DNA of 64,000 nt, taken from assembly GCA_903930735.1 (NCBI GenBank), contig CAIYZT010000441.1, forward strand, positions 2,975 through 66,974. The letters are read 5' to 3'. Position numbers and translations under genes: made by a program. Origin of the DNA: an uncultured Rhodobacteraceae bacterium. GTDB lineage: Bacteria > Pseudomonadota > Alphaproteobacteria > Rhodobacterales > Rhodobacteraceae. This document shows, piece by piece, positions 1-13,937 of this stretch (position 1 is its first letter; every line of letters starts with the position of its first letter). The notes below the pieces were generated by a model. That model was not told where the DNA came from. It searched no databases and was given only the letters and a program-made list of their open reading frames with translations.

Positions 1-867
1 CGCGGCAAAGCCGTAACCGGGCGACAGGATTGGCTGCAATCGGCCAATCGGCCCGGCAATCTCTCCCACCCCCGCCAGCCCCGCGCAGGCACCACCGATC
101 AAGAGCGACAACCAGACCGCGCGGTTGGCTGAAAATCCGGCGTAACGCGCCGCGGCAGGGGCCACACCGCCAACGTGCAGCCGATAGCCCGAAAAGCTGT
201 GCGCTACGAAGACCCAGGCCACCGCCGACAGGGCCAGCGTCAGGATGATCGAATAATTTACACGCAGCAGTCCACCCTCAACGATCAGCGGGTAAAGCGC
301 CTCGGGCGGGAAGGATACCGATTGCGGAAACGAGAACCCGCGCGGATCTTTCAAGGGGCCGTTGATCACATACAAAAGCACCTGCGCCGCAATCTGGTTC
401 AACATCAGCGTTACGATGATCTCGCTGGCATTGAAGCGCGTTCGCAAGAGCGCGGCGATTGCTGCCCAAGCCACCCCGCCCAGGCCTGCGGCCACGATCA
501 TCGAGGGCAGCATCAGCGAAAACGGCTGATCCACCCAGTAAATCGGGATCAGGCTGGCGAAGATAGCCCCGATCGTCAGTTGCCCCTCGGCCCCGATGTT
601 CCAGACCCGCGCGCGAAACCCGATGGCCAAGCCCTGGGCAATAATGATCAGTGGGCTAGCTTTGATCAGCACCTCGCTGATCCCGTAAGCGTCAAGGAAG
701 GGTTCGACGAAAATGCTGTAGAGGGCCGTTCCGGCATCGTTTCCGGTCACCGTGAACATGATCGTGGCGCAGATCACCGTCAGGACAACGGTCAGGACTG
801 GCACGACGAACAGCATGCGTGACGAACGTTCCGTTCTTGCGACGATTTCGAAGGGCCACACACTCAT
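1..867 (-). CDS. ABC transporter permease (BMP/CUT2 nucleoside-or-sugar type), 3'-partial at window edge
   Basis: ATG at 867 overlaps the upstream ATPase stop (ATGA). My translation MSVWPFEIV...IIAQGLAIGFRARVWNIGAEGQL...GGACAGLAGVGE is hydrophobic and multi-TM, and stays open to position 1. It is absent from the ORF track because it is truncated. Confidence 0.8.
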   Translation of the reverse strand, partial: MSVWPFEIVARTERSSRMLFVVPVLTVVLTVICATIMFTVTGNDAGTALYSIFVEPFLDAYGISEVLIKASPLIIIAQGLAIGFRARVWNIGAEGQLTIGAIFASLIPIYWVDQPFSLMLPSMIVAAGLGGVAWAAIAALLRTRFNASEIIVTLMLNQIAAQVLLYVINGPLKDPRGFSFPQSVSFPPEALYPLIVEGGLLRVNYSIILTLALSAVAWVFVAHSFSGYRLHVGGVAPAAARYAGFSANRAVWLSLLIGGACAGLAGVGEIAGPIGRLQPILSPGYGFAA

Positions 868-2399
868 GCAGCTTCTCCGCGTGTGGCACCAAAATGGCCA
901 ATCATCATTTGACCAATTTCTTCAGCGTTGGTATCGCGTGAATTAACCGGATCCGAGATTTTACCATCAAACATTACGACAAGCCGGTCCGAGATTTCGA
1001 AAAGCTCTTCCAACTCCTCGGAAATCACAAGAATCGCCGTGCCCTGATCGCGCAAATCGATAAGTTTCTGCCGTACCATCGCGGCCGCTCCCACATCGAT
1101 GCCCCAAGTGGGCTGTGAGACAATCAGCACACGCGGCGACAGCATCATTTCTCGGCCAACAATGAATTTCTGAAGATTGCCTCCAGACAGGCTTGAGGCC
1201 AAGGAATGGCGCCCTCTTGTGCGGACATCCATTGTCTCGATGCAGGTGTCCGTAAAAACATCCCGCTTTTGCCTGCTAATAAAGCCGTGTTTGACCATGC
1301 CCGACCGATGCGCCGTCAAAAGGCTATTTTCGGAAAGCGACATTGGCGGGGCGGTGCCGCGGCCGAGCCGATCTTCCGGAACAAAAGCCAGGCCGATCCG
1401 GCGGCGGTGCTCGGCATTTAGATGGCCGACGGGATTTCCCAGCATTTGGATGTGGTCGGCCTGTGCCCCGGAAAGCACTTCCTCGCCCGACAGAAGCCGG
1501 GTCAGAATGGATTGACCATTGCCCGAAACGCCAGCAATGCCGACAATCTCGCCTGCGCGCACTTCAAGGCTGACGTCCTTCAGATCCACGCCGTAGGGGT
1601 CTGGGTTCTGTTGCGAAAGCCCCTGCACCAGCAGCCGAACCTCGCCATCGGCGCGCGAGGGTGGATGCACCGGATGGGGAATGTCACGTCCGATCATCAG
1701 CCGCGCCAACTCACTCGAGGTGGCGGTTCTCGGGTCGGCAGTGCCGGCCACCTTGCCCATCCGCAACACAGTCGCCCTGTGGCAAAGCGCGCGGATCTCG
1801 TCCAGCTTGTGCGAGATATACAAGATCGAAACCCCGCGCTCAGGCAACTTGCGCAGGGTCTGAAAAAGTTGCTCCACACTGGATGGCGGCAAGACCGAGG
1901 TCGGCTCGTCCAGGATCAGAAGTGCCGGATCCTGCAGCAGGCTGCGGATGATTTCCACCCGCTGCCGTTCTCCCACTGACAGCCCATGGACTAGCGCCTT
2001 GGGGTTGACCTGAAGGCCGAATTCATCGCCCTTGGCACGGATTTTTTCTTCAAGGTCCGCCAGTGGCGCTGGCACGGTCAACGAGATGTTTTCGGCCACC
2101 GTGACCGTCTCAAAAAGCGAGAAGTGCTGGAAAACCATACCAATCCCCAGCGCGCGCGCCATGCCGGGGCTCTCCATCCGAACCTCGGCGCCCTTCCACA
2201 AGATCTGCCCTTCGTCGGGCATATGAACCCCGTAGATGGTCTTCATCAACGTCGACTTGCCTGCGCCATTCTCGCCCAGAATCGCATGAATCTCGCCAGG
2301 ATTGATGATCAGATTTATCGCGTCATTGGCCACAAACGCGCCATAGCGCTTGGTGATGCCGCGCAGTTCAAGCAAGCTTTGGGCGGGGATGTCTGTCAT
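864..2399 (-). CDS. ABC transporter ATP-binding protein with duplicated ATPase domains
   Basis: 511 aa with two Walker A sites (GENGAGKST, GVSGNGQS), signature motifs LSVGERQ and LSGGNLQ, and Walker B motifs LILDEPT and LIVSQPT. Confidence 0.9.
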   Translation of the reverse strand: MTDIPAQSLLELRGITKRYGAFVANDAINLIINPGEIHAILGENGAGKSTLMKTIYGVHMPDEGQILWKGAEVRMESPGMARALGIGMVFQHFSLFETVTVAENISLTVPAPLADLEEKIRAKGDEFGLQVNPKALVHGLSVGERQRVEIIRSLLQDPALLILDEPTSVLPPSSVEQLFQTLRKLPERGVSILYISHKLDEIRALCHRATVLRMGKVAGTADPRTATSSELARLMIGRDIPHPVHPPSRADGEVRLLVQGLSQQNPDPYGVDLKDVSLEVRAGEIVGIAGVSGNGQSILTRLLSGEEVLSGAQADHIQMLGNPVGHLNAEHRRRIGLAFVPEDRLGRGTAPPMSLSENSLLTAHRSGMVKHGFISRQKRDVFTDTCIETMDVRTRGRHSLASSLSGGNLQKFIVGREMMLSPRVLIVSQPTWGIDVGAAAMVRQKLIDLRDQGTAILVISEELEELFEISDRLVVMFDGKISDPVNSRDTNAEEIGQMMIGHFGATRGEAA

Positions 2400-3025
2400 C
2401 AGGCGAACACATTGATGCCGGGCATGTTGTGGTATCTCGGAAGGCGGGTGAGGCGGTGGATCCAGCGCTGGATGGCGGGATAATAGAAGGTGTCGATGCC
2501 GCCATCGCCGGCAAGCGCCGTATAGGGGAAGCAGGCGATGTCGGCGATCGTGGGACTTGGACCCGCGATCCAGTGGTGGCCTTCGAATTCCTGCTGGCTA
2601 AGGTGGCTGTCGAGAATACGAAACAACCGATGTGCGCCCGCGCGGGCAGCGACAATATCCAGATCATATCCCAGCATGTCGTGCAGGCGCGCGGCCGAGG
2701 AGGTGCCGGTGATGCTGTCAGCAAAGGCAAGCCACTGGACGACCTGGGCGAACTGCGCATGATCGGCCTGCGGCCACCATTGACCCGAAGGGTCATGGCG
2801 GTTGGCCAGATAGACGAGGATAGCCTGGGCGTCGCGGATCACGACGCCGTTGTCCTCTAATACGGGCAACTGACCCAGCGGATTGATTGCCAGAAACGAG
2901 TCGGACTTGTGTTCGCGGCCCGGATAGAAATCAACGCCGACCTTTTCATAGTCCAAGTCCAGAAAGGCCATGAACAGCCGAATCTTGTAACAGTTGCCGG
3001 AAAGGACATAATCATAAAGCTTCAT
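2399..3025 (-). CDS. glutathione S-transferase family protein (copy 1)
   Basis: MKLYDYVLSGNCYKIRL...INPLGQLPVLEDNGVVIRDAQAILVYLA is a thioredoxin-like GST N-domain. The internal ATG at 3025 lies directly after the upstream stop at 3027. Its stop overlaps the ABC ATPase start. Confidence 0.8.
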   Translation of the reverse strand: MKLYDYVLSGNCYKIRLFMAFLDLDYEKVGVDFYPGREHKSDSFLAINPLGQLPVLEDNGVVIRDAQAILVYLANRHDPSGQWWPQADHAQFAQVVQWLAFADSITGTSSAARLHDMLGYDLDIVAARAGAHRLFRILDSHLSQQEFEGHHWIAGPSPTIADIACFPYTALAGDGGIDTFYYPAIQRWIHRLTRLPRYHNMPGINVFA

Positions 3026-3026
3026 A

Positions 3027-3881
3027 TCAGGCAGCCTCTGCCAATTTCGCGGTGCCCCAAACCACGCCATTCGCTTTCAGCCAGCGACGGTAGGCAATGG
3101 ACGACGCGTCGGCGCGGGTTGGCATTTCCCAGCGGGGGTCAATCGGCAATTTGCGCGGGACTTGGTTTTCAAGGATCATGCGGTCCTGCAGGAAGATATT
3201 CTGCTGGAAATGCAGGAGGCTGGTATCAGAGTTGCTTTCGTCGAATACCAGCACGAAGGAATGGGCAATGCAGGCGTCCTCTTCTGTTGGCTGAATGAAC
3301 AGGCCGATCAAATCCCAGGCACCTTCACGAATGGGGCATGTCTTGTATAGAATTGTCGAATAGGGGTGTGGGACTCGGTATTTGTATTCAGTGATCTGTC
3401 CGCCCGTCGCCGTAGCCGCTGCCATTGGCTGAAAAAAGCAGCATTTGGTAGCCCAGATCTCGTCCCTCTCGGCATCCATTGACACGTCGTATTTCTCGAC
3501 CTCCGGATGCTCTTCAATTCCCAGAATCCCCGTGTGGACAAAGGGGAAATGCGCCATGTCGAGGAAATTTTCTACCGCGCGCAGCCCCGAGCACAGCACT
3601 CCGATGGCTCCGGCGGTAACAAGACGGCGACCCTCTTCCAGAAATTCGGGCATGTCGTAAAGCGCACGTGGCTTGTCCATCAGCGTGGTCCAGACATGCC
3701 CGTAGCGCGCCTGAACCATGCAGGGGCGCCCATCGGCGCGGGTGACCTTTACATCCTTTCCCTGCCGAACGGCGACAATATCCTGTGACAGCAGCCGCAG
3801 GGGTCTGGACAGGCCCTCGGGGAAATCGGCAAAGCGGCCAATGGCATACCAGTGTGAGGCTGTGAAGTCATCGGGAGACAT
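3027..3881 (-). CDS. Rieske-less non-haem iron oxygenase catalytic subunit (copy 1)
   Basis: Mononuclear-iron motif NFLDMAHFPFVH (D-x2-H-x4-H). The N-terminal 70 aa lack C-x-H...C-x2-H. Start chosen at the ATG 7 nt after AAGGA; the longest ORF starts at 3908 (TTG). Confidence 0.7.
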   Translation of the reverse strand: MSPDDFTASHWYAIGRFADFPEGLSRPLRLLSQDIVAVRQGKDVKVTRADGRPCMVQARYGHVWTTLMDKPRALYDMPEFLEEGRRLVTAGAIGVLCSGLRAVENFLDMAHFPFVHTGILGIEEHPEVEKYDVSMDAERDEIWATKCCFFQPMAAATATGGQITEYKYRVPHPYSTILYKTCPIREGAWDLIGLFIQPTEEDACIAHSFVLVFDESNSDTSLLHFQQNIFLQDRMILENQVPRKLPIDPRWEMPTRADASSIAYRRWLKANGVVWGTAKLAEAA

Positions 3882-3946
3882 CGCCATTTCCTTTTGGGTC
3901 GTCGTCAAGAGACAGGGCCATCATGGGTGCGGCCCGGTTTGGGCGT

Positions 3947-4609
3947 TCAGGCCGCGATTGGACGTTCCAAATGGCCACGCAGGCTTTCGATCCAGTCGCT
4001 GGCACGGGTCAAATCCTCCGGGCCGGTCACACACGCATGCAGCATCGCTCCGCGCGCGCCCATCGGCTGAACCGCCAGAAGAACCGCCCCCTGCAGGCCC
4101 GCCACGCGCAATTGGCCGGCCCAAGCGCCCATCGCCAGTGCAAGATTGGCTTTGCCTGTGCCTAGAACCTCGGCCAGACCCGTCAGTGAGCGGTTGACCT
4201 GCATCGTCCGGCAAGGCATCCACGTGCCCGAAATCTGCGGAGGCGGCTCCGAACTTTCGGATCGTGCGACCCAGATCATTCCGCCCGTTTCAACACAGCC
4301 ATAGGCCTTTGCCCGGATAGACTTGGGCGGCACCAGGTCGGGATGCGCCGGTATATGGGCGCAGCCACCCGTCCCGTCATAGGTCCAGCCATGATAAAGG
4401 CAGGTCAGCCGATTTTCCCGAACGATTCCATAGGAAAGCCGCATCCCCCGGTGCGGGCATCGGTTTTGCCAGGCGCGGGCAAGCCCATCTTGCCCGCGCC
4501 AAATCGCTATATCATCCTCGAAGATGACAGCCCGTACGGACGTCCCGGTTTCGGCCGCATTCTGCAGGCCTGCTGGCATCCATCCAGCAAACGAGACCAC
4601 GCTGTCCAT
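3947..4609 (-). CDS. stand-alone Rieske [2Fe-2S] domain protein (copy 1)
   Basis: CPHRGMRLSYGIVRENRLTCLYHGW is a complete C-x-H-x17-C-x2-H motif. The protein is 220 aa and has no D-x2-H-x4-H catalytic motif. Confidence 0.8.
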   Translation of the reverse strand: MDSVVSFAGWMPAGLQNAAETGTSVRAVIFEDDIAIWRGQDGLARAWQNRCPHRGMRLSYGIVRENRLTCLYHGWTYDGTGGCAHIPAHPDLVPPKSIRAKAYGCVETGGMIWVARSESSEPPPQISGTWMPCRTMQVNRSLTGLAEVLGTGKANLALAMGAWAGQLRVAGLQGAVLLAVQPMGARGAMLHACVTGPEDLTRASDWIESLRGHLERPIAA

Positions 4610-4717
4610 GCCTCAATCTCCCTGTTCGCATCTTGACGTTAGCAGTGCAGGAGGGGCTTAAATAGGCGGGAAGTCAGAACCAAGCGTCCAAGAATTTGAA
4701 CGACCGCAGGTGAGCCC
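4610..4717. promoter_or_regulatory. divergent intergenic region between the LysR gene and the Rieske operon
   Basis: A 108-bp gap between divergently transcribed genes, which is the classical LysR autoregulatory layout. I did not identify a convincing T-N11-A box. Confidence 0.35.
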
Positions 4718-5650
4718 ATGGAAGAGAAGATCGAGTTGAAGGATATCGACTTGTTCGTGCGGATCGCACGCACCGGCAGCCTTTCGAAGACCGCGCAGCA
4801 GTTCAACATTCCCAAGGCCTCGCTCAGCCATTCGCTGCGGCGGCTGGAGGATTCGCTGAACGTTGAGTTGTTCATTCGCAGCGCCCGCGGCCTCAGCCTG
4901 ACCGAGGCCGGACGGGCTTACCTAAAGAATTGCCACCGCATTTTCGAGAGCTGCGATCTGGCGGCCTATGCGGCGCAAAGTGCGCACAGTTCGGTGTCTG
5001 GAAAGATCCGAATCGCCGCCAGCGCGGAGTTCGGCACATCGATCCTTGGGGCGGCCACGCTGCATCTAGCCAGGGAACACCCCGAATTGGACTTCGAGGT
5101 TCGGATGTATCCCAGCGATGTGCTTCTGACTGCCCAGCCTGAGTTTGATTGCCTAATCTATGTGGGCACGGTGCCGGATTCTAGCTACCTTTGCCGTAAA
5201 ATGGGGACAATTTCATATGGAATCTACGCCAGCCCCAGCTTTCTTAACACCCACGGTACGCCGAAATTACCAAAGGATATAAAGGCGCTAAGCGGCGTGG
5301 AATTTTCTCGCGGCGGCATTTCGGAGGCGTGGCTTTTGAACTTGAAAAACCATGCTCAGCCAATTGATTATCAGCGGAAATTCAGTGTGAACGATTACTG
5401 GATGGCGAAGTATTATGCCGTCTTGGGTCTGGCCTTGGCCTACTTACCGGACTTTTTTGTGCATTACGAGGTGCTGAATGGCGCGCTGCGGCCAGTGCTG
5501 CCCCACGCCCGCTCGGTCGAAACCGCGGCCTGGGTGGTGTTCCCGATGTCGCGCCACAAGAACCCAAGGGTTCAGCTTGCGGTGGACACGCTCTGCTCGA
5601 AGTTTCAGGAGTTCATCGTACATCCCGGCTATACGCTGATCGAGCCCTGA
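4718..5650 (+). CDS. LysR-family transcriptional regulator
   Basis: N-terminal HTH DIDLFVRIARTGSLSKTAQQFNIPKASLSHSLRRLEDSLNVELFIRSARGLSLTEAG followed by a substrate-binding domain of about 200 aa. Confidence 0.9.
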   Translation: MEEKIELKDIDLFVRIARTGSLSKTAQQFNIPKASLSHSLRRLEDSLNVELFIRSARGLSLTEAGRAYLKNCHRIFESCDLAAYAAQSAHSSVSGKIRIAASAEFGTSILGAATLHLAREHPELDFEVRMYPSDVLLTAQPEFDCLIYVGTVPDSSYLCRKMGTISYGIYASPSFLNTHGTPKLPKDIKALSGVEFSRGGISEAWLLNLKNHAQPIDYQRKFSVNDYWMAKYYAVLGLALAYLPDFFVHYEVLNGALRPVLPHARSVETAAWVVFPMSRHKNPRVQLAVDTLCSKFQEFIVHPGYTLIEP

Positions 5651-5910
5651 GGACCGGGGCACGATTGTGCGTGCAACGGCGCCAGTTGGACGTCATCAAC
5701 GCGGCCATTCTCCGGTCCAAGCCAGCAGGCCATTTCAAACATGTCGATCAGGTTTTCGTTACCCTGCACGTCGACGGTGACCCGGCCCGGTGTGACAGAC
5801 AGAATGCGGCTTTTCAGGTCCAGTCGGCGCAGGAAATGCTGCATCAGCGCCAGACAGGCCTCTGTTTCCATCCTGCCCGTCACGGTCAACCTCGTTGCGC
5901 GCTCGGCCAT
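5629..5910 (-). CDS. hypothetical small protein, translationally coupled to the reductase
   Basis: The ATG at 5910 shares one nucleotide with the reductase TAA stop. The 93-aa sequence MAERATRLTVTGRMETEACLALMQHFL... has balanced composition. The longer 146-aa ORF in the track has an Arg/Gly-rich N-terminus that overlaps the reductase. Confidence 0.4.
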   Translation of the reverse strand: MAERATRLTVTGRMETEACLALMQHFLRRLDLKSRILSVTPGRVTVDVQGNENLIDMFEMACWLGPENGRVDDVQLAPLHAQSCPGPQGSISV

Positions 5911-6854
5911 TACAAGTCCAGGACCAGCCGCGCGCCCTTGCAGCGCGATACGCAGGGCATGATCAATGTGCCAAGTGCCTTTTCCGATGCGTTGAGATAT
6001 TGGTCGCGGTGATCGGGAACCCCTTCCAGAACCGTGGTCAGGCAGGTGCCGCAGACCCCCTGTTCGCACGAGGTCATCGGCGTGATGCCCGCCTCTTCCA
6101 TCGCCGCGATGATCGTCTGCCCCTCGGCCACACGCAGGGTCTTTCCCGTGCGCTTCAGCACCACCTCGAACTCGCCGCCGCTCTGGTCCAGCCGAGAGGG
6201 GTCGATCGAGAAGCGCTCCAGATGCACGCGAGAGGAAGGCCAGCCGGCCAGTATCGCCTCGCGCTCAACAAGATCCATGAAGGGGCCGGGGCCACAGATG
6301 TAGAGGTGCCCCTGAGGGTCCGGCGCGGCTAGAAGGCCCCTGACCACCCGGTCAAGTGCAGGGGGCAGAAGACCCAGATGCACCGCCGCCCCCGGCAGGG
6401 CGGTAAGCAGGTCCAGAAAGGGCGTTTGAGGGGCGCTGCGGGCGAAAAGATGCAGCGCACCGGGCTGGCCCCGGGCCGCCACTTGCCGCGCCATCGACAG
6501 AAGCGGCGTGATGCCGATCCCCCCCGCCAGTAAAAGCGGCGGCCCGCCGCCTTCGGCCATCTCGAAATTGTTCCGCAGCACGCCGATTTCCAGCACGTCG
6601 CCCACGCCCAGTTCGTGCATGGCGACGGATCCGCCGCGCCCGTGCGCCTCGCGCTTGACACCGATCAGATAGGCGTCGCGGTCCTCTGGGCCGTTCCACA
6701 GCGAATATTGCCGGATCAGGCCGCCCTTCAGATGCACTTCCAGATGTGCGCCCGGCGTGAAGGGGGCCGGCGGGCCATCGACCGGCACCAGCGCGAAGCA
6801 ACGAATTTCCGGGGTCGCCTCCCAGACGCGAACGATTCTTGCGCGACTGGTCAT
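5910..6854 (-). CDS. VanB/phthalate-dioxygenase-reductase-type oxidoreductase (flavin/NAD-binding domain plus plant-type 2Fe-2S)
   Basis: RQYSLW flavin-binding motif, LLLAGGIGITPLLSM NAD-binding motif, and a C-terminal CEQGVCGTCLTTV...PC ferredoxin cluster motif. Confidence 0.85.
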   Translation of the reverse strand: MTSRARIVRVWEATPEIRCFALVPVDGPPAPFTPGAHLEVHLKGGLIRQYSLWNGPEDRDAYLIGVKREAHGRGGSVAMHELGVGDVLEIGVLRNNFEMAEGGGPPLLLAGGIGITPLLSMARQVAARGQPGALHLFARSAPQTPFLDLLTALPGAAVHLGLLPPALDRVVRGLLAAPDPQGHLYICGPGPFMDLVEREAILAGWPSSRVHLERFSIDPSRLDQSGGEFEVVLKRTGKTLRVAEGQTIIAAMEEAGITPMTSCEQGVCGTCLTTVLEGVPDHRDQYLNASEKALGTLIMPCVSRCKGARLVLDL

Positions 6855-7495
6855 GTGCGGGCTTCCTTCGGCAAAGGCAGGGGCATCATACCGGCCATGG
6901 GCGCAAAGCCCGGAAGGCGCATGAACCGGTCGGTCCAGCGTTGGATCGCTGCGTAAGGTGCCAAATCAATCCCGCCCTCTTCAGCCAGAGCGACATAGGG
7001 AAAGCAGGCGATGTCGGCGATGGTCGGGTGTTCGCCCGCAATGATCCAGTCTTGCCCTGCCCATTCAGCAAACCACAGGTGGTCGTCAAGGATGCGCAAA
7101 AGCTGCACCCCGCCGGCCCGAGCTTTGTCCACATCCAGCCGGAAGAACATCGCATCATGCAGCCGCGCGGCGGAAATCGTGCCGGTGATACTGTCGGCAA
7201 AAGCCAGCCATTGATAGATCGGTCCGATCCTGTCCATCGGGCACCATTGGCCCAAGGGGTCGCGCGTGGTGGCCAGATAGATTAGGATGGCTTGGGCATC
7301 GCGGATAAGCTGACCATCGATCTCAATCACCGGGAGTTGCCCCAAGGGGTTGATCTTGCGGAAGGTGTCCGAGCGGTGCTCGAACCCGGGGTAGAAATCG
7401 ACCAGTCGGGTTTCGTATTCGAGGTCAAGCCAACTCAGAAGCAGCCGGACCTTGAAGCAGTTCCCCGACAGGGCATAGTCATATAATCTGATCAT
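6851..7495 (-). CDS. glutathione S-transferase family protein (copy 2)
   Basis: MIRLYDYALSGNCFKVRLLLSWLDLEYE...INPLGQLPVIEIDGQLIRDAQAILIYLA is a paralogue of 2399..3025. The ATG at 7495 forms an ATGA overlap with the upstream stop. Confidence 0.8.
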   Translation of the reverse strand: MIRLYDYALSGNCFKVRLLLSWLDLEYETRLVDFYPGFEHRSDTFRKINPLGQLPVIEIDGQLIRDAQAILIYLATTRDPLGQWCPMDRIGPIYQWLAFADSITGTISAARLHDAMFFRLDVDKARAGGVQLLRILDDHLWFAEWAGQDWIIAGEHPTIADIACFPYVALAEEGGIDLAPYAAIQRWTDRFMRLPGFAPMAGMMPLPLPKEART

Positions 7496-8031
7496 CCTGC
7501 CGCCTCCAGCCTGCGCCGCAGCGCCGTCAGCATGCGATGCGCCGCCATCGCATCCGGGTCGATGCCATAAACCATGCAGGCCGCTGCGCCCCAAGGGGTG
7601 ATCCGTGTTTTCGTAGGGTCTAGCTCGGCCGCGACCCGGTTGGCCGACACACCGAAATGAAGCGGTCGCAACGGCGGGCCTGCGAAGTCGCCGGTTTCCA
7701 GCACTCCGGCGGAGGCCCAGACAAAGCCGCCAGTGACAGCCGAAGCCAGCACGTGGGCGGAAATCTCGGGATGTCCCTTGCCTCCTTCGGCCGGGACATG
7801 GATTACCGTCCCGTCCTCTGCAAAGCGCCAGCCGTGATAGGGGTCTTCCAGATACGCCCCCATGTTGCGCCCGGCGCTCAGGCGGGAAGACCGGTGCGGG
7901 CAGCGGTCTTCCCAGACATGCACTGAGCCCGACGCGCCGCGCCAGATCACCAGTTCCGCCGTGTCCATCCGTCCTCGCACCAGCCCCTCCGGCAGAACCT
8001 CGCGGTCAAGGGCGACGATGTAGGTGCTCAT
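7492..8031 (-). CDS. stand-alone Rieske-like protein (copy 2) with Asp in place of the third cluster ligand
   Basis: CPHRSSRLSAGRNMGAYLEDPYHGW shows C-x-H present, but the expected C-x2-H reads D-P-Y-H. The ATG at 8031 forms an ATGA overlap with the upstream stop. Confidence 0.7.
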   Translation of the reverse strand: MSTYIVALDREVLPEGLVRGRMDTAELVIWRGASGSVHVWEDRCPHRSSRLSAGRNMGAYLEDPYHGWRFAEDGTVIHVPAEGGKGHPEISAHVLASAVTGGFVWASAGVLETGDFAGPPLRPLHFGVSANRVAAELDPTKTRITPWGAAACMVYGIDPDAMAAHRMLTALRRRLEAAG

Positions 8032-8849
8032 TGCACTGCTCCATATCTTACTCCCTTGTCGCGCAGCCACTGCCGATACGCCAGCGACCCGACATCAACG
8101 CTGACCGAGCTTTCCAGCCCTGCAAGCGGCAGCCGTTTTTCCGTATGCCGTTCCAGCACATATTTATCCTGCACCGAGATCCATTGCTGATCCGATTTCA
8201 ATCGCCGCTCATCCATCCAATTCTCGTGAACCCAGGCGAACATCTTGTGGGCGATGAAGTTCTCTTCATCGACGGGCTGAGCAAAAATTCCCAGAAAGTC
8301 ATGGCGCCCCGGGGATTGCGGGCGATGGATATAGAGGATGACCGTGTAGGGGTCAGCGATGCGGTAGGTGTATTCGGCCACTGATTGGGTCAGCGGAAGC
8401 CAGGCCCTCTGCGAAGGCAGCCATAGGGTTCCGCCCTCATCGATAATGGGTTCGGCGGTGATAATATCCGGATGCGCCGCGTCCCCCAAAATTCCGGGAT
8501 GGACGAAGGGGAAATGGGCATTGTCGATGACATTGTCGATGATGCGCAGGCCTGAACATTTGATCGGCGTGGACCAGATGTTCATCGTCACTCGGTCCAC
8601 CTCGTAATATTCGAGGAGCGACTGCGGCGGTCCGTCGGGCCGACCCAGCGTCGTCCAGACATAGCCGAGCCGTTCCGTCACCGGCAAAGGACGCCCTTCG
8701 CAGGCCGCCGAAATCCAGGTCTTGTGGATGGTCAGGTCGATCTGATGCCCCAGAAGCCTGGTGCGCGTGGCGTGCTGGCGGCGGATATCGGTGGGCGCAC
8801 CCACCGGATACCAGGCATTCCAGACCACCGGATCGTCTCTGGCATCCAT
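8028..8849 (-). CDS. Rieske-less non-haem iron oxygenase catalytic subunit (copy 2)
   Basis: IDNVIDNAHFPFVHPGILG iron motif and no Rieske cysteines or histidines in the N-terminus. It is a paralogue of 3027..3881. Confidence 0.7.
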   Translation of the reverse strand: MDARDDPVVWNAWYPVGAPTDIRRQHATRTRLLGHQIDLTIHKTWISAACEGRPLPVTERLGYVWTTLGRPDGPPQSLLEYYEVDRVTMNIWSTPIKCSGLRIIDNVIDNAHFPFVHPGILGDAAHPDIITAEPIIDEGGTLWLPSQRAWLPLTQSVAEYTYRIADPYTVILYIHRPQSPGRHDFLGIFAQPVDEENFIAHKMFAWVHENWMDERRLKSDQQWISVQDKYVLERHTEKRLPLAGLESSVSVDVGSLAYRQWLRDKGVRYGAVQ

Positions 8850-8851
8850 GC

Positions 8852-9907
8852 TCAGCGACTTTCGATGATGTCGGTCAGTAGCGCCTTCTCAAAGGCTTCC
8901 TTACCTAGAGTCGCGGCATGGCCCAACTCGCGCAGCCATTTGCGATATTGGTTGGAAACCTTGTCGGTCGGCAGAGAAATCTCGTCAAGCGACAACCCGC
9001 CCGGCTGGGTCTCAATTACTGGCTGATCCTCGGCTAGAACGATCTTCTGGAAACGGATCGGCTGGTCGTCAGGGATGTCGGGGTCGGTATGAGCGATGAT
9101 CATGAAGTTACGGCAGGTGTCGGCGGTCACTGGGCTGGAGGTGGTCCAAAGCAGGAAGGGCTGATCGTTCCGGTAAAGCCTGATCGACAGGTTGATGGAG
9201 TAGGGCATAGCCGCACGGTAGGTCCAACTACCCAAGGGGCTTTCGGGCGGCAGGGTATTCAGCATGTCTTTGCCGGGTTCCAAAAAGAATTGCAGTTCGC
9301 CCCCGACGCGGTCGATGGGTACGATCGCCGGTTCGGAATAGGCCGGGTCATAAAGGGTGCCGGGGTGCACGTAGGCGAAATGCGAGAAATCGGTGAAATT
9401 CTCCCAGCGTCGCTCTGCCGAGCTGCCCCAGTCGTAAGGCACCCCGATTATCTGGCGCTTGAATTCGGGATTCTCCCAGGCCTCGCAATATGGGATCGAA
9501 CTGCAATTCCACGAGCTGTCCAGCCTCACCCAGATCAGTCCGTATTTCACCTCGCACTCATAAGCCTGGGTAAAAGCCTTTTTCGGGACCGGGTCGTTGG
9601 GGCATGCCGGGATCAGTTTACACTTGCCGTCCGAACCATACTGCCAGCCGTGATAGGGGCACTGCAGGCGGCCGTCCGGCAGGACCTTACCGGCCGACAG
9701 CTTAGCAAAGCGATGCGCGCAGCGATCGGCCATCGCGACGATCTTGTCGTCCAGCTTGGCAATCACGACAGCCTCCTCCAGCAAGACACGGCCGATAGGC
9801 CCTACGCCTTGCGCGTTGGACTCGGACAATTCCTGTAACGTCGCCACCGGATGCCAGAAGTGCCGCAAGTAGCTTTGGTCTTCGACCAACGGTCGCTGAA
9901 TGTTCAT
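8852..9907 (-). CDS. full-length Rieske non-haem iron oxygenase alpha subunit (VanA/phthalate-family type)
   Basis: Rieske motif CAHRFAKLSAGKVLPDGRLQCPYHGW plus catalytic motif NFTDFSHFAYVH. Start taken at MNIQRPL, which is preceded by AGGAG; the longest ORF reaches 9949. Confidence 0.85.
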   Translation of the reverse strand: MNIQRPLVEDQSYLRHFWHPVATLQELSESNAQGVGPIGRVLLEEAVVIAKLDDKIVAMADRCAHRFAKLSAGKVLPDGRLQCPYHGWQYGSDGKCKLIPACPNDPVPKKAFTQAYECEVKYGLIWVRLDSSWNCSSIPYCEAWENPEFKRQIIGVPYDWGSSAERRWENFTDFSHFAYVHPGTLYDPAYSEPAIVPIDRVGGELQFFLEPGKDMLNTLPPESPLGSWTYRAAMPYSINLSIRLYRNDQPFLLWTTSSPVTADTCRNFMIIAHTDPDIPDDQPIRFQKIVLAEDQPVIETQPGGLSLDEISLPTDKVSNQYRKWLRELGHAATLGKEAFEKALLTDIIESR

Positions 9908-10099
9908 GCCAGACTCCTGTTTCACGCGAGCTTTGGTCAGATTACGCAAGTGCGTCCGTTCGCGAAAGTTGCTTGAATTATACCGGGCGTTCCATTTATT
10001 GAACGAAAAAGCTGTCCTTCGGGTGTTGTCATGTGCGGACGGCTCCGATTACGCAAGGGCAGCCAAGGCATCTACTACACCGGCTTTGACGCCAACTAG

Positions 10100-10234
10100 G
10101 CCAGCCTGATCATCGGCATTCTTCTGCTGCTGGCGGTCTTAATGAACAACACTTTCCGCAAGGCTGCGTTGTCCTACACGCCCAAGGCTCACAAACCCAG
10201 GTCCACCGCTGGCACCGCAAAGGTGAAAGCATGA
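10100..10234 (+). pseudogene. C-terminal remnant of a sugar-ABC permease
   Basis: Only 44 codons are open (..[18 protein letters not shown]..). The stop overlaps the ATG of the following ATPase (GCATGA), as in an intact operon. An in-frame TAG lies directly upstream. Confidence 0.4.
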
Positions 10235-11057
10235 CCGCGCCCCAAATGACCTCTCCTGCGAAGTCAGCATCCCTTCTCAGATTGTCCAACATCAACAAAA
10301 GCTTCGGCCCGATCGACGTCTTGCACGACATCTCGCTCGAGGTCTATCGAGGCGAGGTCCTGTGCCTTCTGGGCGACAACGGTGCTGGCAAATCGACGCT
10401 GATCCGGCTTCTGTCGGGCGTGCACAAACCGACTTCGGGCACGCGGTGCATTTCGCCAGCCCGCGCGAAGCCAGCAAAGCTGGGATCGCCACGGTGCATC
10501 AATTCGGCGGCACTTTTCCCTTGATGTCGATCGGCCGGTCTTCCTTTGTCGGTCAAGAGCCTAGAAAGGGCCGGGGCCCGTTCCAGGTCTATGACCGCAA
10601 ACGCGCCAACGAGATCGCGGTCAAAGCTGTGCGCGATCTCGGCACTACCCGAATCACCGACGGCGACCGGCTGGGAGGCGGCCTTGCCGGCGGCGAACGG
10701 CAATCGCTGGCGATCGCCCGAACCTTGCATTTCGGCGCCCGTGTTCTGATCCTTGATGAACCCACTGCCGCACTTGGAGTAAAGCAGGCCGCCCATGTAT
10801 TGCGCATTGTCAACGAGGCCGAGCGTCGGGGCCTTGCCGTGGTGTTCATTACCCATCAGGTCATGCACGCGATGGCGGTGGGCGCCCACTTTGCCGTCCT
10901 GATCCGCGGTGCCATCGCCGCTGATTTTCGTAAGGGCGAGAGAACTCGAGAAGAGATTGCCGACTTGATGGCCGGCGGCGAAACCATGGCGACGCTGGAG
11001 GCCTCGGTCAAAGATTACATGGAAGCTCATGAAGGCTACGCGCCGACAATGGCCTGA
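10231..11057 (+). pseudogene. frameshifted sugar-type ABC ATP-binding protein
   Basis: Walker [10 protein letters not shown] and ..GVHKPTSG lie in frame 1. The continuation [20 protein letters not shown]...GGERQ...LILDEPT lies in another frame. About 8 codons are missing at around 10440-10446. The signature motif is degenerate (LAGGERQ). Confidence 0.75.
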
Positions 11058-11284
11058 TCTAATCCCATTGGGCGGTCTTCTCCCGACCGCCCCGAACTGT
11101 CCGTCGCGCCTCTCCACCGCGCGGATCTTGCCAACGATCCGGGCCAGAAACCGTTTGGCCCGGATCACCCCTTTTTTGGCCCTATCCATTCAAATCGCGG
11201 CCAAAGGAAGATAATTGACTCAAGAATCCTTCGGCACCGGACGACAACGAAGGCGGCTTCCGGCATGCCACGGCCCGGGGCGGA

Positions 11285-11740
11285 TCAGGTCCTGCTTCGC
11301 CATTTGAGCACTCGAAATCCGGGGCAAGCCTTCGCAGCATACTCGTTGTGTCCGGAAACACGGGACACGGCAGTTCGGTCAGCGATTTCCGTCAAGAGGC
11401 CGCGCAAGGCTAGATCCTGCGCCGCTGCGAAATTCTTCTCGAACGGATCATCCGCGGTCGATCCCGCACCGCCGACTAGGCAGATGTGGATGACACCACG
11501 GTTGTGCCCCTCCACGCCCGCTCCGATCTCGGTTTCCGGACGGCCGGGCAATGTGCTGCCATCCCGATCGATCAGGTGGTGGTAGCCTATATCGCGCCAG
11601 CCGCGCTGGTCCACATGCCAGCGCCGGATTTCGGCGCGCTTGGCGGCGAGGGATTGGCCCTTCATCCAGCCCGGCGGCGTCGCGCTGCAATGGATGACGA
11701 TTTCGGAGACGGGATATCGGGCAGTGCCTTGGTAGATCAT
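11285..11740 (-). CDS. N-acetylmuramoyl-L-alanine amidase (PGRP/T7-lysozyme-like endolysin)
   Basis: IVIHCSAT...IGYHHLIDRDG...GHNRGVIHICLVGG...GHNEYAAKACPGF. AAGGAG lies before the ATG. Confidence 0.9.
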   Translation of the reverse strand: MIYQGTARYPVSEIVIHCSATPPGWMKGQSLAAKRAEIRRWHVDQRGWRDIGYHHLIDRDGSTLPGRPETEIGAGVEGHNRGVIHICLVGGAGSTADDPFEKNFAAAQDLALRGLLTEIADRTAVSRVSGHNEYAAKACPGFRVLKWRSRT

Positions 11741-11763
11741 GTCTTTCTCCTTGGACTAGTTGA

Positions 11764-11859
11764 TCAGTGGCTTAGGAAGGCGAAGACGCCGACCGCAATC
11801 GCGGCGCCCCAGAAGATGAGTTCGCGGCTGAGACGGCGGAGTGTGTCACCGCGTTTCAT
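11764..11859 (-). CDS. 31-aa single-TM peptide between holin and endolysin (lysis accessory candidate)
   Basis: My translation MKRGDTLRRLSRELIFWGAAIAVGVFAFLSH. It overlaps the holin 3' end by 14 nt and is below the ORF-track size cutoff. Confidence 0.35.
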   Translation of the reverse strand: MKRGDTLRRLSRELIFWGAAIAVGVFAFLSH

Positions 11860-12187
11860 CGGACTTCCTCTTGGCTTCGGCACTGCGGGCGCGGATCATG
11901 TCGATCAAGAGCCCAGCGATGGAAATGCCGCCGAGGCCCACGATGAAGGAGGCGAAGCCGTTGCTGTCGCCGTTCGGAGCGAGATCGCCGATCATCGGGC
12001 TGATCAGCGGATTGACGAAGGGCCCGACATAGAGGGCGCAGATCGAGCCCACGAGAAGCGAGGCCACGCCGTCTTGCCAGCGTTCGCGCAGGGTGACCCA
12101 GCGCACGATGCCGCCTGCGGCGCCGGCAAGGGCGGTTTTAGCCTGGTCGGTCATGATCCATGACCAGAAGTCGTTCTGGTTTGCCAC
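11846..12187 (-). CDS. holin-like membrane protein
   Basis: 113 aa with predicted TM stretches (LLVGSICALYVGPFV, FASFIVGLGGISIAGLLI) and a charged C-terminus. It lies directly upstream of the endolysin. GTG start with AAGGAG. Confidence 0.6.
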   Translation of the reverse strand: MANQNDFWSWIMTDQAKTALAGAAGGIVRWVTLRERWQDGVASLLVGSICALYVGPFVNPLISPMIGDLAPNGDSNGFASFIVGLGGISIAGLLIDMIRARSAEAKRKSDETR

Positions 12188-13927: not shown

Positions 13928-13937
13928 GGGAATTCTC

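What the first reader, a model, noticed from the sequence alone, without database searches (positions are those of the whole stretch)
2399..9907. Duplicated 'stand-alone Rieske / Rieske-less oxygenase / GST' modules with a shared reductase: a split NdmCDE-like GST-dependent oxygenase architecture
Seen: the same three-gene module occurs twice, at 4609-2399 and at 8849-6851. One gene has the iron motif D-x2-H-x4-H but no Rieske ligands. One small protein carries only a Rieske domain. One is a GST. The gene order differs between the copies: copy 1 runs Rieske, catalytic, GST, and copy 2 runs catalytic, Rieske, GST. The genes are joined by ATGA or 1-nt overlaps. One VanB-type reductase (5910-6854), one canonical full-length Rieske oxygenase (8852-9907) and a LysR gene complete the cluster. 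Copy 1 runs straight into a BMP/CUT2-type ABC importer. Established: in Pseudomonas putida CBB5 the N7-demethylase NdmC lacks a Rieske domain, needs the GST homologue NdmE, and borrows a Rieske cluster carried by the reductase NdmD. Inference: here the same logic is implemented with the Rieske domain as a free polypeptide. The substrate (a methylated purine or another N/O-methylated compound, given the nucleoside-type importer) is unknown.
Basis: partly seen in the sequence, partly recalled or inferred. Interest (0 to 1): 0.75.

Follow-up and report, generated by a model that had tools for sequence, protein, structure and literature searches.

The report
Split caffeine-type N-demethylase gene island
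This is a mobile gene island for removing methyl groups from caffeine-like purines, built from relatives of the Pseudomonas NdmB, NdmC, NdmD and NdmE proteins. Here the iron-sulfur (Rieske) part is a separate small protein, a widespread arrangement that I could not find described, and in one of the two copies that protein lacks a normal iron-sulfur binding site.

Summary
Window 2399-9907 (minus strand) encodes two trios of a Rieske-less catalytic subunit, a small Rieske-fold protein and a GST, plus one PDR/VanB reductase, one full-length Rieske oxygenase and a LysR regulator.

The NdmCDE reading is supported by direct comparison with a genuine Pseudomonas ndmABCDE cluster:
- Cat1 is 47% and Cat2 37% identical to NdmC.
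- The GSTs are 55% and 57% identical to NdmE.
- The small Rieske proteins match the NdmD N-terminus, and the reductase matches NdmD residues 278-588.
- The full-length oxygenase is NdmB-like (E 1e-126 to PDB 6ICL) and carries NdmB's Gln/Leu specificity pair.

The same island sits on a Komagataeibacter plasmid from kombucha tea and in Paracoccus, Pseudooceanicola and Leisingera.

- **Correction:** Rieske protein 2 lacks the second cysteine ligand (Asp here, Gly in most orthologues).
- **Addition 1:** a conserved 93-aa acylphosphatase-like gene (5629-5910) belongs to the module.
- **Addition 2:** the "stand-alone Rieske" proteins are predicted to be shrunken oxygenase alpha subunits.

The free-Rieske trio is common in Alphaproteobacteria: nearly all of the 80 closest genome loci have it. 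I found no description of it in the literature I could search. Verdict: a new variant of a known kind. The substrate is probably methylxanthines, unproven.

The parts
1..867 (-). ABC importer permease, cut off by the window start
   Evidence: The frame is open and hydrophobic. The same genome (L001) shows BPD_transp_2 permeases x2, a Bmp-family binding protein and then S-(hydroxymethyl)glutathione dehydrogenase downstream.
864..2399 (-). Double ABC_tran ATPase of a BMP/CUT2-type importer; last gene of operon 1 that lies in the window
   Evidence: Pfam ABC_tran x2, E 2e-49. Its start overlaps the GST1 stop by 1 nt.
2399..3025 (-). GST1, an NdmE-like GST-fold protein (208 aa)
   Evidence: GST_N/GST_C domains. 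55% identical to Pseudomonas NdmE, E 4e-81.
3027..3881 (-). Cat1, an NdmC-like catalytic subunit without Rieske cluster ligands (284 aa)
   Evidence: VanA_C only. 47% identical to NdmC over the full length. Motif ENFLDMAHFPFVH plus QD. The Rieske cluster loops are deleted.
3947..4609 (-). Rsk1, a small Rieske-fold protein with the canonical CPH-x17-CLYH ligand set and a vestigial catalytic-domain tail (220 aa)
   Evidence: Rieske domain, E 2.5e-21. Matches NdmD residues 4-152. 120 of 120 listed family members have canonical ligands. AlphaFold2 pLDDT 94.5; Foldseek aligns it along whole RO alpha subunits, TMq 0.75-0.79.
4718..5650 (+). LysR-family regulator, divergent from operon 1
   Evidence: HTH_1 plus LysR_substrate domains. 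A LysR gene lies in or beside many related clusters.
5629..5910 (-). Conserved 93-aa acylphosphatase-like accessory protein; last gene of operon 2
   Evidence: NCBIfam acylphosphatase, E 1.9e-6, below the curated cut-off. tblastn finds homologues in about 80 related loci, in most of them just upstream of the free Rieske gene. TAATG overlap with the reductase stop.
5910..6854 (-). PDR/VanB-type NAD(P)H reductase with a C-terminal plant-type [2Fe-2S] domain (314 aa)
   Evidence: NAD_binding_1 plus Fer2 domains. 40% identical to NdmD residues 278-588. The orthologue is annotated as a PDR/VanB family oxidoreductase.
6851..7495 (-). GST2, an NdmE-like GST-fold protein (214 aa)
   Evidence: GST_N domains. 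57% identical to NdmE and 60% to GST1.
7492..8031 (-). Rsk2, a Rieske-fold protein that lacks the second Cys ligand (CPH...YLEDPYH; 179 aa)
   Evidence: Rieske domain, E 3e-15. The Cys position is Asp here and Gly in the Komagataeibacter, Paracoccus, Pseudooceanicola and Leisingera orthologues. Family tally. AlphaFold2 pLDDT 96.8 with an RO-alpha-like fold.
8028..8849 (-). Cat2, a divergent NdmC-family catalytic subunit (273 aa)
   Evidence: VanA_C only. 37% identical to NdmC and 33% to Cat1. DNVIDNAHFPFVH plus QD is conserved in all 15 Cat2-type sequences. Basal clade in the NJ tree.
8852..9907 (-). Full-length NdmB-like Rieske N-demethylase (351 aa); first gene of operon 2
   Evidence: E 8.9e-127 to NdmB (PDB 6ICL) and 1e-117 to NdmA. 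About 53% identical to Pseudomonas NdmB and NdmA. FQKIVLAED carries NdmB's Gln/Leu pair.
10231..11057 (+). Frameshifted ABC ATPase pseudogene at the right edge of the island
   Evidence: Two overlapping ORFs each hold part of one ABC_tran domain. G+C rises from 0.55-0.62 inside the island to 0.64-0.66 beyond it.

Best explanation
This is an alphaproteobacterial version of the purine-alkaloid N-demethylation (Ndm) system, carried on a horizontally mobile island and organised as two operons around a LysR regulator.

**Proposed electron path.** NAD(P)H passes electrons to the flavin and then the plant-type [2Fe-2S] cluster of the single PDR/VanB reductase. From there they go to a Rieske centre, then to the mononuclear iron. 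The iron hydroxylates an N-methyl group, which leaves as formaldehyde.

**Three terminal oxygenases share the reductase.**
1. A conventional full-length NdmB-like enzyme, probably N3-specific.
2. Cat1, the closer NdmC relative and probably the N7-demethylase. Its Rieske centre is supplied by the separate protein Rsk1, and GST1 acts as the NdmE-type structural partner.
3. Cat2 with Rsk2 and GST2, of unknown position specificity.

**Origin of the partners.** Rsk and Cat are two complementary, degenerate halves of an oxygenase alpha subunit. Cat lost only the cluster-binding loops. Rsk kept the Rieske domain and a stump of the catalytic domain. They presumably co-assemble so that the Rsk cluster sits beside the Cat iron, as neighbouring subunits do in an ordinary alpha3 trimer. 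In Pseudomonas NdmD the Rsk unit is fused to the reductase; here it is free.

**Supporting genes.** A BMP-type ABC importer brings in the purine substrate, and a glutathione-dependent formaldehyde dehydrogenase removes the product.

**Shown versus inferred.** Shown: homology, domain content, ligand motifs, gene linkage and distribution. Inferred: the physical complex, the electron path, the substrate and the regiospecificities.
For: - **Homology to each Ndm component.** Measured against a Pseudomonas cluster whose NdmA and NdmB score E 1e-229 and 1e-235 to the CBB5 crystal sequences.
- **NdmB-like oxygenase.** E 8.9e-127 to PDB 6ICL, with the Gln/Leu pair. These are the two positions that differ between wild-type NdmA and the NdmA QL mutant of PDB 6ICP. 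PMC8055839 states that two active-site mutations switch NdmA from N1- to N3-demethylation.
- **Iron site.** The facial-triad motif is intact in all 91 Cat1-type, 15 Cat2-type and 5 NdmC-type sequences.
- **Deletion in Cat.** It precisely removes the CxH...CxxH segment.
- **Linkage.** Nearly all of the 80 genome loci returned (those most similar to Cat1) contain a free Rieske gene and an NdmE-like GST. In most of them the order is Rieske-Cat-GST, contiguous.
- **Rsk tail.** It aligns with the NdmD segment between the Rieske and reductase parts.
- **Rsk fold.** The AlphaFold2 models (pLDDT 94.5 and 96.8) align along whole RO alpha subunits rather than with shuttle ferredoxins. The best sequence hits are alpha-subunit Rieske domains at E 3e-26, against 4e-4 for the ferredoxin T4moC.
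- **Same island elsewhere.** It occurs on Komagataeibacter nataicola plasmid pKNA08 from kombucha tea, flanked by IS elements and together with an NdmA-type (Asn/Phe) oxygenase. It also occurs in Paracoccus versutus and P. angustae, Pseudooceanicola nitratireducens and Leisingera.
- **Formaldehyde removal.** The dehydrogenase after the transporter scores 585 bits against a cut-off of 544 for S-(hydroxymethyl)glutathione dehydrogenase, as frmA does in the Pseudomonas cluster.
- **Published background.** The review PMC4408171 describes NdmC as Rieske-less, NdmE as a structural GST and NdmD as carrying the extra Rieske cluster.
Against: - No biochemistry exists for any member of the free-Rieske form.
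- Identity to the Ndm proteins is moderate (37-57%), so the substrate could differ.
- The source is an unnamed alphaproteobacterial MAG whose closest relatives are marine Rhodobacterales, where natural methylxanthine sources are not obvious.
- No NdmA-type gene lies in the window, and no xanthine-catabolism genes lie beside the cluster.
- Rsk2 lacks a Cys ligand, so module 2 cannot work exactly as proposed for module 1.
- In L005 module 2 has been deleted down to a 118-aa Cat2 remnant, which shows it is dispensable in some lineages.
- The Rhizobium-type trios have no reductase within 8 kb and sit beside a purine-deaminase-like amidohydrolase. That suggests the family's ancestral substrate may be another methylated purine.
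Confidence: 0.7

Rival explanations
1. The architecture is as described, but the physiological substrates are not caffeine-type methylxanthines. They would be other N-methylated purines, for example 7-methylguanine or 7-methylxanthine from nucleic-acid turnover, or methylated purines made by marine invertebrates.
For: - The transporter is a BMP (nucleoside/purine-type) ABC importer, not the NCS2 nucleobase permease of the Pseudomonas and Paraburkholderia clusters.
- The far more numerous Rhizobium-type trios lie next to an amidohydrolase that resembles 8-oxoguanine or guanine deaminase (363 bits, below the 532 cut-off) and a BMP importer.
- Many carriers are marine or soil bacteria with no link to coffee or tea.
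- No NdmA-type gene is present in the window.
Against: - The NdmB-like protein is 53-56% identical to proven methylxanthine demethylases and keeps the Gln/Leu pair.
- The identical island is on a plasmid from a tea fermentation, together with an NdmA-type oxygenase.
Confidence: 0.3
2. Module 2 does not work like module 1. Rsk2 is a redox-dead or non-canonical Rieske-fold scaffold, and Cat2 takes its electrons from another Rieske centre. That centre could be Rsk1 or the Rieske domain of the NdmB-like protein, which is always encoded immediately upstream. Alternatively, module 2 is decaying.
For: - The second Cys ligand is Asp in the window and Gly, Ala or Ser in many orthologues. Of 43 family members, 7 have it in the canonical place, 13 have a Cys shifted to position -3, and 23 have neither. 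One member has also lost the second His.
- In the exhaustive search the family proper is about nine 50%-identity clusters with the same mix, while more distant relatives are canonical.
- The Rsk1 family is 120 of 120 canonical.
- Rsk2-type genes were always found in the unit NdmB-like RO, Cat2, Rsk2, GST2; in L096 the upstream oxygenase appears as two shorter ORFs.
- L005 has lost module 2.
Against: - CPH and YHGW remain invariant or nearly so across a family that is only 36-63% identical, which argues for continued metal binding.
- A Glu at position -1 accompanies most Cys losses and could serve as a substitute ligand, but it is Gln in some members.
- Cat2 is well conserved (61-73%) with an intact iron site, so the module is not simply decaying.
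Confidence: 0.3
3. The GST-fold proteins are true glutathione-dependent enzymes rather than structural partners. For example, they might trap the released formaldehyde as S-hydroxymethylglutathione for the downstream dehydrogenase.
For: - A glutathione-dependent formaldehyde dehydrogenase ends the operon.
- Complete GST_N and GST_C domains, the N-terminal SGNC motif and the QLP loop are conserved.
Against: - The published view of NdmE is that it is needed for solubility and activity of NdmC and has no known catalytic role (PMC4408171, PMC8055839).
- The usual Glu-Ser glutathione-binding pair is Asp-Ala in both window GSTs and in Pseudomonas NdmE.
- Each catalytic subunit has its own GST, encoded with tight or overlapping junctions. 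That fits a stoichiometric partner.
Confidence: 0.12
4. This is an ordinary vanillate- or aromatic-type O-demethylase cluster that happens to lie beside unrelated detoxification GSTs and Rieske ferredoxins.
For: Pfam names the catalytic domain VanA_C, and NCBI annotates these proteins generically as aromatic ring-hydroxylating dioxygenase subunit alpha.
Against: - Every component has its best characterised match in the Ndm system.
- The trio is linked in nearly all of the 80 loci examined.
- No aromatic-ring catabolic genes are nearby.
Confidence: 0.03

Closest known systems
NdmCDE, the 7-methylxanthine N7-demethylase complex of Pseudomonas putida CBB5 (Summers et al. 2013; reviewed in PMC4408171)
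   Same: - A Rieske-less catalytic subunit of the same family (47% and 37% identity).
- An NdmE-type GST partner (55-57% identity).
- The Rieske centre is supplied in trans by a unit homologous to the NdmD N-terminus.
- A reductase homologous to the NdmD C-terminal part.
   Different: - The Rieske unit is a separate polypeptide, not the N-terminus of the reductase.
- Two such modules share one reductase.
- One Rieske unit lacks a Cys ligand.
- An acylphosphatase-like small protein is linked to the module. tblastn found no counterpart in the four fused-NdmD loci examined.
- Import is by a BMP ABC transporter instead of an NCS2 permease, and the regulator is LysR instead of GntR.
NdmA and NdmB, the full-length methylxanthine N1- and N3-demethylases (PDB 6ICK, 6ICL)
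   Same: The gene at 8852-9907 has the same length and domain order. It scores E 1e-126 to NdmB, is about 53% identical, and has NdmB's Gln/Leu pair.
   Different: It is always encoded directly upstream of Cat2-Rsk2-GST2, and it uses a reductase without an extra Rieske domain. Its activity is untested.
Three-component Rieske oxygenases with a shuttle Rieske ferredoxin (e.g. carbazole dioxygenase CarAa/CarAc/CarAd, toluene-4-monooxygenase T4moC)
   Same: A small separate Rieske protein stands between a reductase and an oxygenase.
   Different: - In those systems the oxygenase keeps its own Rieske cluster and the ferredoxin has about 110 residues.
- Here the oxygenase has no cluster.
- The small protein is derived from an alpha subunit, with a vestigial catalytic-domain tail. 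Sequence hits: alpha subunits E 3e-26, T4moC 4e-4. Foldseek: whole-alpha alignments at TMq 0.75-0.79.
SxtT and GxtA, the saxitoxin Rieske hydroxylases (PDB 6WN3, 6WNC)
   Same: They are the best solved-structure matches for Cat1, Cat2, Rsk1 and Rsk2, by sequence and by fold.
   Different: They are ordinary single-chain alpha subunits with both metal centres. The similarity is family-level only.

Membership tests
NdmCDE-type GST-dependent N-demethylase | Catalytic subunit homologous to NdmC that lacks the CxH...CxxH Rieske ligands | tested here: met
   Cat1 is 47% identical to NdmC (E 2e-89) and Cat2 37% (E 7e-47). The alignment shows the cluster-binding segment deleted in NdmC, Cat1 and Cat2 alike. 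In the NJ tree all Rieske-less subunits group apart from the NdmA/B catalytic domains (no bootstrap, rooted on one of those domains).
NdmCDE-type GST-dependent N-demethylase | Intact mononuclear-iron site (2-His-1-carboxylate) with the bridging Asp | tested here: met
   ENFLDMAHFPFVH plus QD in Cat1 and DNVIDNAHFPFVH plus QD in Cat2. The columns are invariant in alignment A1, and the motif is present in 111 of 111 family members checked.
NdmCDE-type GST-dependent N-demethylase | An NdmE-type GST-fold partner encoded with the catalytic gene | tested here: met
   GST1 and GST2 are 55% and 57% identical to NdmE. A GST is linked in nearly all 80 loci.
NdmCDE-type GST-dependent N-demethylase | Rieske cluster carried on the N-terminus of the reductase (NdmD fusion) | tested here: not met
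   The reductase has 314 aa and no Rieske domain. The NdmD N-terminal unit is encoded separately as Rsk1 and Rsk2. The fused form is present in Pseudomonas, Klebsiella, Paraburkholderia and Sinorhizobium.
NdmCDE-type GST-dependent N-demethylase | N7-demethylation of 7-methylxanthine; the GST is required for solubility and activity | not testable with these tools
   This needs expression and enzyme assays.
NdmA/NdmB full-length methylxanthine N-demethylases (gene 8852-9907) | Rieske plus VanA_C architecture with close similarity to the solved enzymes | tested here: met
   Domains. E 8.9e-127 to PDB 6ICL over residues 18-364.
NdmA/NdmB full-length methylxanthine N-demethylases (gene 8852-9907) | Position-specificity pair (NdmA Asn/Phe, NdmB Gln/Leu) | tested here: met
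   The window protein reads FQKIVLAED, the NdmB type. The extra Komagataeibacter oxygenase reads AFNDLVFAED, the NdmA type.
Canonical Rieske [2Fe-2S] domain | Ligand set CxH-x15-18-CxxH | tested here: met
   Rsk1 has CPH-x17-CLYH, and 120 of 120 listed homologues are canonical.
Canonical Rieske [2Fe-2S] domain (Rsk2) | Ligand set CxH-x15-18-CxxH | tested here: not met
   Rsk2 has CPH...YLEDPYH, so the second Cys is Asp. The same sequence is found in independent assemblies (L001, L002). Orthologues have Gly, Ala, Ser or Asp there.
Shuttle Rieske ferredoxins of three-component oxygenases | A single-domain protein of about 100-115 aa, most similar to other ferredoxins | tested here: not met
   Rsk1 has 220 aa and Rsk2 179 aa, each with a structured C-terminal sheet and helix. 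The best sequence and fold matches are oxygenase alpha subunits aligned end to end.
PDR/VanB (class IA) reductases | Flavin/NAD(P)H-binding FNR-like module followed by a C-terminal plant-type [2Fe-2S] domain | tested here: met
   NAD_binding_1 plus Fer2 at residues 234-305. 40% identical to NdmD 278-588. The orthologue is annotated PDR/VanB.

The most novel reading that the evidence does not exclude
Rsk2 defines a small lineage of Rieske-fold proteins that has given up the second cysteine ligand. There are two possibilities:

1. It holds a non-canonical centre with Cys, two His and a carboxylate.
2. It is redox-dead, and Cat2 receives electrons from the Rieske centre of the NdmB-like subunit that is always encoded just upstream.

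The second case would mean a mixed oxygenase in which a full-length alpha subunit and a split alpha subunit share one electron entry point.

More broadly, the Rsk/Cat pair would be a natural case of an oxygenase alpha subunit divided by duplication and complementary degeneration. The ACYP-like protein would be a fourth, so far unrecognised, component.
Probability: 0.2. Interest if true: 0.8.

Novelty: new variant of a known kind. Interest (0 to 1): 0.6.

Why it matters
**Structure of the known system.** NdmCDE is the only described Rieske-type oxygenase that needs a GST-fold partner and borrows its Rieske cluster. A May 2026 paper states that its structure is still unsolved (PMC13237722). The free-Rieske form found here separates the complex into small proteins that AlphaFold2 predicts with high confidence. 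It may therefore be an easier route to the structure and to understanding what the GST does.

**Origin of the split.** The results suggest how the split arose: two complementary, degenerate alpha subunits. In an unbootstrapped NJ tree both free-Rieske clades fall outside the fused clade, which hints that the fused NdmD is the derived state.

**Scale of the family.** Many are rhizobia, and their substrates are unknown. Methylated purines from nucleic-acid turnover are an obvious candidate.

**Practical use.** Culturable carriers exist (Paracoccus versutus, Pseudooceanicola nitratireducens, Komagataeibacter from kombucha). They offer new demethylases for making methylxanthines. The kombucha plasmid also raises the question of whether that strain can demethylate tea alkaloids.

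**The cysteine-less partner.** It is a testable oddity for iron-sulfur biochemistry.

Tried and rejected
- **Primary paper not available.** Summers et al. 2013 (PMC3754594) is not held. [quoted passage not shown] The review only says they are mostly Sinorhizobium and Mesorhizobium. In my data Sinorhizobium has the fused form and Mesorhizobium the split form.
- **Literature searches.** Searches for NdmC/NdmCDE, 7-methylguanine + Rieske + GST, Komagataeibacter + caffeine, and Rieske-lacking N-demethylases found no description of the free-Rieske form.
- **Regulatory signals.** The promoter and terminator scans gave nothing above shuffled background, and no inverted repeats were found in the two control regions. 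I make no claim about LysR boxes. Both regions contain a TTGAACG word, which I did not pursue.
- **Ideas rejected:**
  - Recent tandem duplication. The paralogues are only 33-60% identical.
  - Rsk proteins as ordinary shuttle ferredoxins.
  - The missing Cys as an assembly error. The same sequence occurs in independent assemblies and the change is shared by orthologues.
- **Not possible with these tools.** No multimer prediction was available, and model coordinates could not be inspected. The geometry around the Rsk2 ligand site and the Rsk-Cat-GST interface remain untested.

Full report
**What is in the sequence**

On the minus strand of window 1-9907 lie two operons around a plus-strand LysR gene (4718-5650).

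- Operon 2 (9907 to 5629) encodes, in order:
  - a full-length Rieske oxygenase (8852-9907)
  - Cat2 (8028-8849)
  - Rsk2 (7492-8031)
  - GST2 (6851-7495)
  - a PDR/VanB-type reductase (5910-6854)
  - a 93-aa ORF (5629-5910)
- Operon 1 (4609 to beyond the window start) encodes:
  - Rsk1 (3947-4609)
  - Cat1 (3027-3881)
  - GST1 (2399-3025)
  - an ABC ATPase (864-2399)
  - a permease that runs off the window

Pfam confirms the domain content. Cat1 and Cat2 have only VanA_C, Rsk1 and Rsk2 only Rieske, and the reductase has NAD_binding_1 plus a C-terminal Fer2 domain. There are three ATGA overlaps in operon 2, a TAATG overlap into the small ORF, and a TGATG overlap from GST1 into the ATPase.

The two trios are old paralogues, not recent copies. 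Cat1 and Cat2 are 33% identical, Rsk1 and Rsk2 36%, and GST1 and GST2 60%.

**Identity of the parts**

The full-length oxygenase matches the crystal-structure sequence of NdmB (PDB 6ICL) at E 8.9e-127 and NdmA at about 1e-118. NdmC, NdmD and NdmE are not in the PDB, so I looked for a genuine cluster to compare with.

A P. putida plasmid (L009) carries frmA, ndmA, ndmB, an NCS2 permease, a TIM-barrel gene, ndmC, ndmD, ndmE and fghA. Its NdmA and NdmB score E 1e-229 and 1e-235 against the CBB5 structures, with few substitutions.

Against that cluster:
- Cat1 is 47% identical to NdmC end to end, and Cat2 is 37% identical.
- GST1 and GST2 are 55% and 57% identical to NdmE.
- Rsk1 and Rsk2 align with the first ~150 residues of NdmD.
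- The reductase aligns with NdmD 278-588 at 40% identity.

The C-terminal ~100 residues of the Rsk proteins align with the NdmD stretch between its Rieske domain and its reductase part. NdmD therefore equals an Rsk unit fused to a reductase, and here the two are separate genes.

**Catalytic subunits**

A multiple alignment with NdmA, NdmB and the window's NdmB-like protein shows the same thing in NdmC, Cat1 and Cat2. They keep the first strands of the Rieske fold and the strand that ends it. A block of about 45 residues holding CxH...CxxH has been removed.

The iron site is intact: E/D-x3-D-x2-H-x4-H and the later Q-D. It is invariant in the 14-sequence alignment and present in all 111 family members I collected.

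A neighbour-joining tree (no bootstrap, so only indicative) groups all Rieske-less subunits together, apart from the NdmA/B catalytic domains on which it was rooted. The Cat2 clade branches first within that group. The fused-type group (NdmC plus Sinorhizobium) is sister to the free-Rieske group (Cat1 plus the Rhizobium type).

**The Rieske partners are shrunken alpha subunits**

AlphaFold2 models are confident: Rsk1 pLDDT 94.5 and Rsk2 96.8. Foldseek against the PDB does not put ferredoxins first. The best matches are whole oxygenase alpha subunits (GxtA, SxtT, NdmA, dicamba monooxygenase).

For Rsk1 the alignments span about 270-290 columns of 311-328-residue targets, with TMq 0.75-0.79. Rsk2 behaves the same way. 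By sequence, alpha-subunit Rieske domains score E 3e-26, whereas the shuttle ferredoxin T4moC scores 4e-4.

So each partner is a Rieske domain plus a stump of the catalytic domain, made of a few strands and the long C-terminal helix, without iron ligands. My inference is that Cat and Rsk arose from a duplicated alpha-subunit gene by complementary loss. I further infer that they co-assemble so the Rsk cluster sits next to the Cat iron, as neighbouring subunits do in an alpha3 trimer. That step is not shown.

**A correction: Rsk2 lacks a ligand**

Rsk1 has the canonical CPH-x17-CLYH, and so do all 120 listed relatives. Rsk2 reads CPH...YLEDPYHGW, with Asp where the second Cys should be. The same sequence is present in independent assemblies. 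The orthologues in Komagataeibacter, Paracoccus, Pseudooceanicola and Leisingera have Gly at that position, and only a Rhizobiaceae MAG keeps Cys.

Among 43 family members:

| Second Cys ligand | Members |
|---|---|
| In the canonical place | 7 |
| Shifted three residues upstream | 13 |
| Absent from both positions | 23 |

An exhaustive profile search shows the family proper is small, about nine clusters at 50% identity, with the same mixture. More distant relatives are canonical.

CPH and YHGW stay invariant or nearly so, and a Glu usually precedes the lost Cys. Cat2 is well conserved (61-73%) with an intact iron site. I cannot decide between two readings. Rsk2 may hold a non-canonical centre, or it may be a scaffold while Cat2 is reduced by another Rieske centre.

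In every locus examined, Rsk2-type genes sit in the unit full-length NdmB-like oxygenase, Cat2, Rsk2, GST2. In L096 the upstream oxygenase appears as two shorter ORFs.

**A fourth conserved gene**

The 93-aa ORF after the reductase is weakly acylphosphatase-like (E 1.9e-6, below the cut-off). tblastn finds a counterpart in about 80 of the fetched loci, in most of them directly upstream of the free Rieske gene. In Rhizobium it is annotated as acylphosphatase. None was found in the fused-NdmD loci. Its role is unknown.

**Distribution**

I classified the 80 best loci with HMMs built from the proteins above. Nearly all have a free Rieske gene and an NdmE-like GST, and in most the order is Rieske-Cat-GST, contiguous. 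In the Rhizobium-type loci no reductase lies within 8 kb.

On plasmids the family is dominated by Rhizobium (free form) and Sinorhizobium (fused form, with two tandem Cat genes).

The complete twin island (NdmB-like, module 2, reductase, ACYP-like gene, module 1) recurs in:
- Komagataeibacter nataicola DS12 plasmid pKNA08 from kombucha tea. There it is flanked by IS elements and accompanied by an oxygenase with NdmA's Asn/Phe pair.
- Paracoccus versutus DSM 582 and P. angustae.
- Pseudooceanicola nitratireducens.
- Leisingera and Roseobacteraceae MAGs.
- A Rhizobiaceae MAG.

In another genome (L005) module 2 has been deleted down to a 118-aa remnant.

In the window's own genome the island ends with the BMP-type importer, a glutathione-dependent formaldehyde dehydrogenase (585 bits, cut-off 544) and an IS110 transposase. 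On the other side lies a frameshifted ABC ATPase gene, and G+C rises from 0.55-0.62 to about 0.65. The island therefore appears to have been acquired horizontally.

**Function**

The most likely function is stepwise N-demethylation of purine alkaloids, with formaldehyde as the by-product. Four points support this:
- The NdmB-like enzyme carries the Gln/Leu pair. These are the positions that differ between wild-type NdmA and its QL mutant in the PDB. A published statement says two active-site mutations convert N1- to N3-specificity (PMC8055839).
- Cat1 is the closer NdmC relative, and NdmC's known reaction is 7-methylxanthine to xanthine (PMC4408171).
- The same island occurs in a tea fermentation.
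- A formaldehyde dehydrogenase is linked to the cluster.

NdmB-like plus module 1 would suffice for theobromine. Module 2 may handle another position, and no NdmA-type gene lies in the window.

The main uncertainty is the substrate. The importer is of the nucleoside/purine BMP type. The Rhizobium-type trios sit beside a purine-deaminase-like amidohydrolase. So other methylated purines are a serious alternative, especially for the wider family.

**Novelty**

[quoted passage not shown] It notes unnamed homologous clusters in 18 organisms. I found no description of the free-Rieske form, of the cysteine-less partner or of the small accessory gene in the searchable literature. I could not read the 2013 primary paper.

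I therefore rate this a new variant of a known kind. It is common in genomes and unstudied in the laboratory. It could be useful because the NdmCDE structure is reported as still unsolved.

Noticed in passing
window 5629-5910 (-): A 93-aa acylphosphatase-like ORF overlaps the reductase stop by 1 nt. Homologues occur in about 80 related loci, in most of them directly upstream of the free Rieske gene. None was found in the fused-NdmD loci. It may be a fourth component of the module. Its function is unknown.
   Followed up: partly
window 10231-11057 (+): An ABC transporter ATPase gene is split by a frameshift into two overlapping ORFs, each holding part of one ABC_tran domain. It marks the right edge of the lower-G+C island.
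   Followed up: partly
window about 11285-31900 (-): A phage-like block follows the island. It includes Amidase_2, DUF2793, a 1318-aa tail protein with GTA_TIM, Phage-tail_3 and Rcc01698_C domains, a baseplate hub, DUF2460, an 809-aa tape-measure protein, a major capsid protein E and an S49 protease. It looks like a prophage related to alphaproteobacterial gene transfer agents.
   Followed up: no
L006 (Komagataeibacter nataicola DS12 plasmid pKNA08), 6932-13483 and 17918-18997: A conjugative plasmid from a kombucha tea culture carries the same twin island (49-75% protein identity). It also has an extra full-length oxygenase with NdmA's Asn/Phe pair, and IS3, IS5 and IS110 elements surround the cluster. 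This raises the question of whether the strain demethylates tea alkaloids.
   Followed up: partly
L007 (Rhizobium brockwellii plasmid), 6909-15515: The common Rhizobium-type cluster has an ACYP-like gene, Rieske, Cat, GST, an amidohydrolase resembling 8-oxoguanine or guanine deaminase, and a BMP ABC importer, with no reductase nearby. It may serve catabolism of a methylated guanine or other methylpurine.
   Followed up: partly
L011 (Sinorhizobium meliloti pSymA), 6162-10518: Two tandem Rieske-less catalytic genes are followed by one fused NdmD-like gene and a GST ORF that the plasmid gene table does not list. They lie next to a BMP importer and a xanthine-dehydrogenase-family cluster.
   Followed up: no
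L005, 5577-11489: A related genome keeps the NdmB-like gene, the reductase and module 1. Of module 2 only a 118-aa Cat2 remnant is left, so there has been a lineage-specific deletion.
   Followed up: no
L001 17249-18358 (same genome, beyond the window start): An IS110-family transposase lies directly after the formaldehyde dehydrogenase that ends operon 1. This fits a mobile island.
   Followed up: no
window 4685-4702 and 9990-10005: Both upstream control regions contain a TTGAACG word. The first lies within an imperfect hairpin flagged by the terminator scan. These could be regulator sites, but nothing was tested.
   Followed up: no
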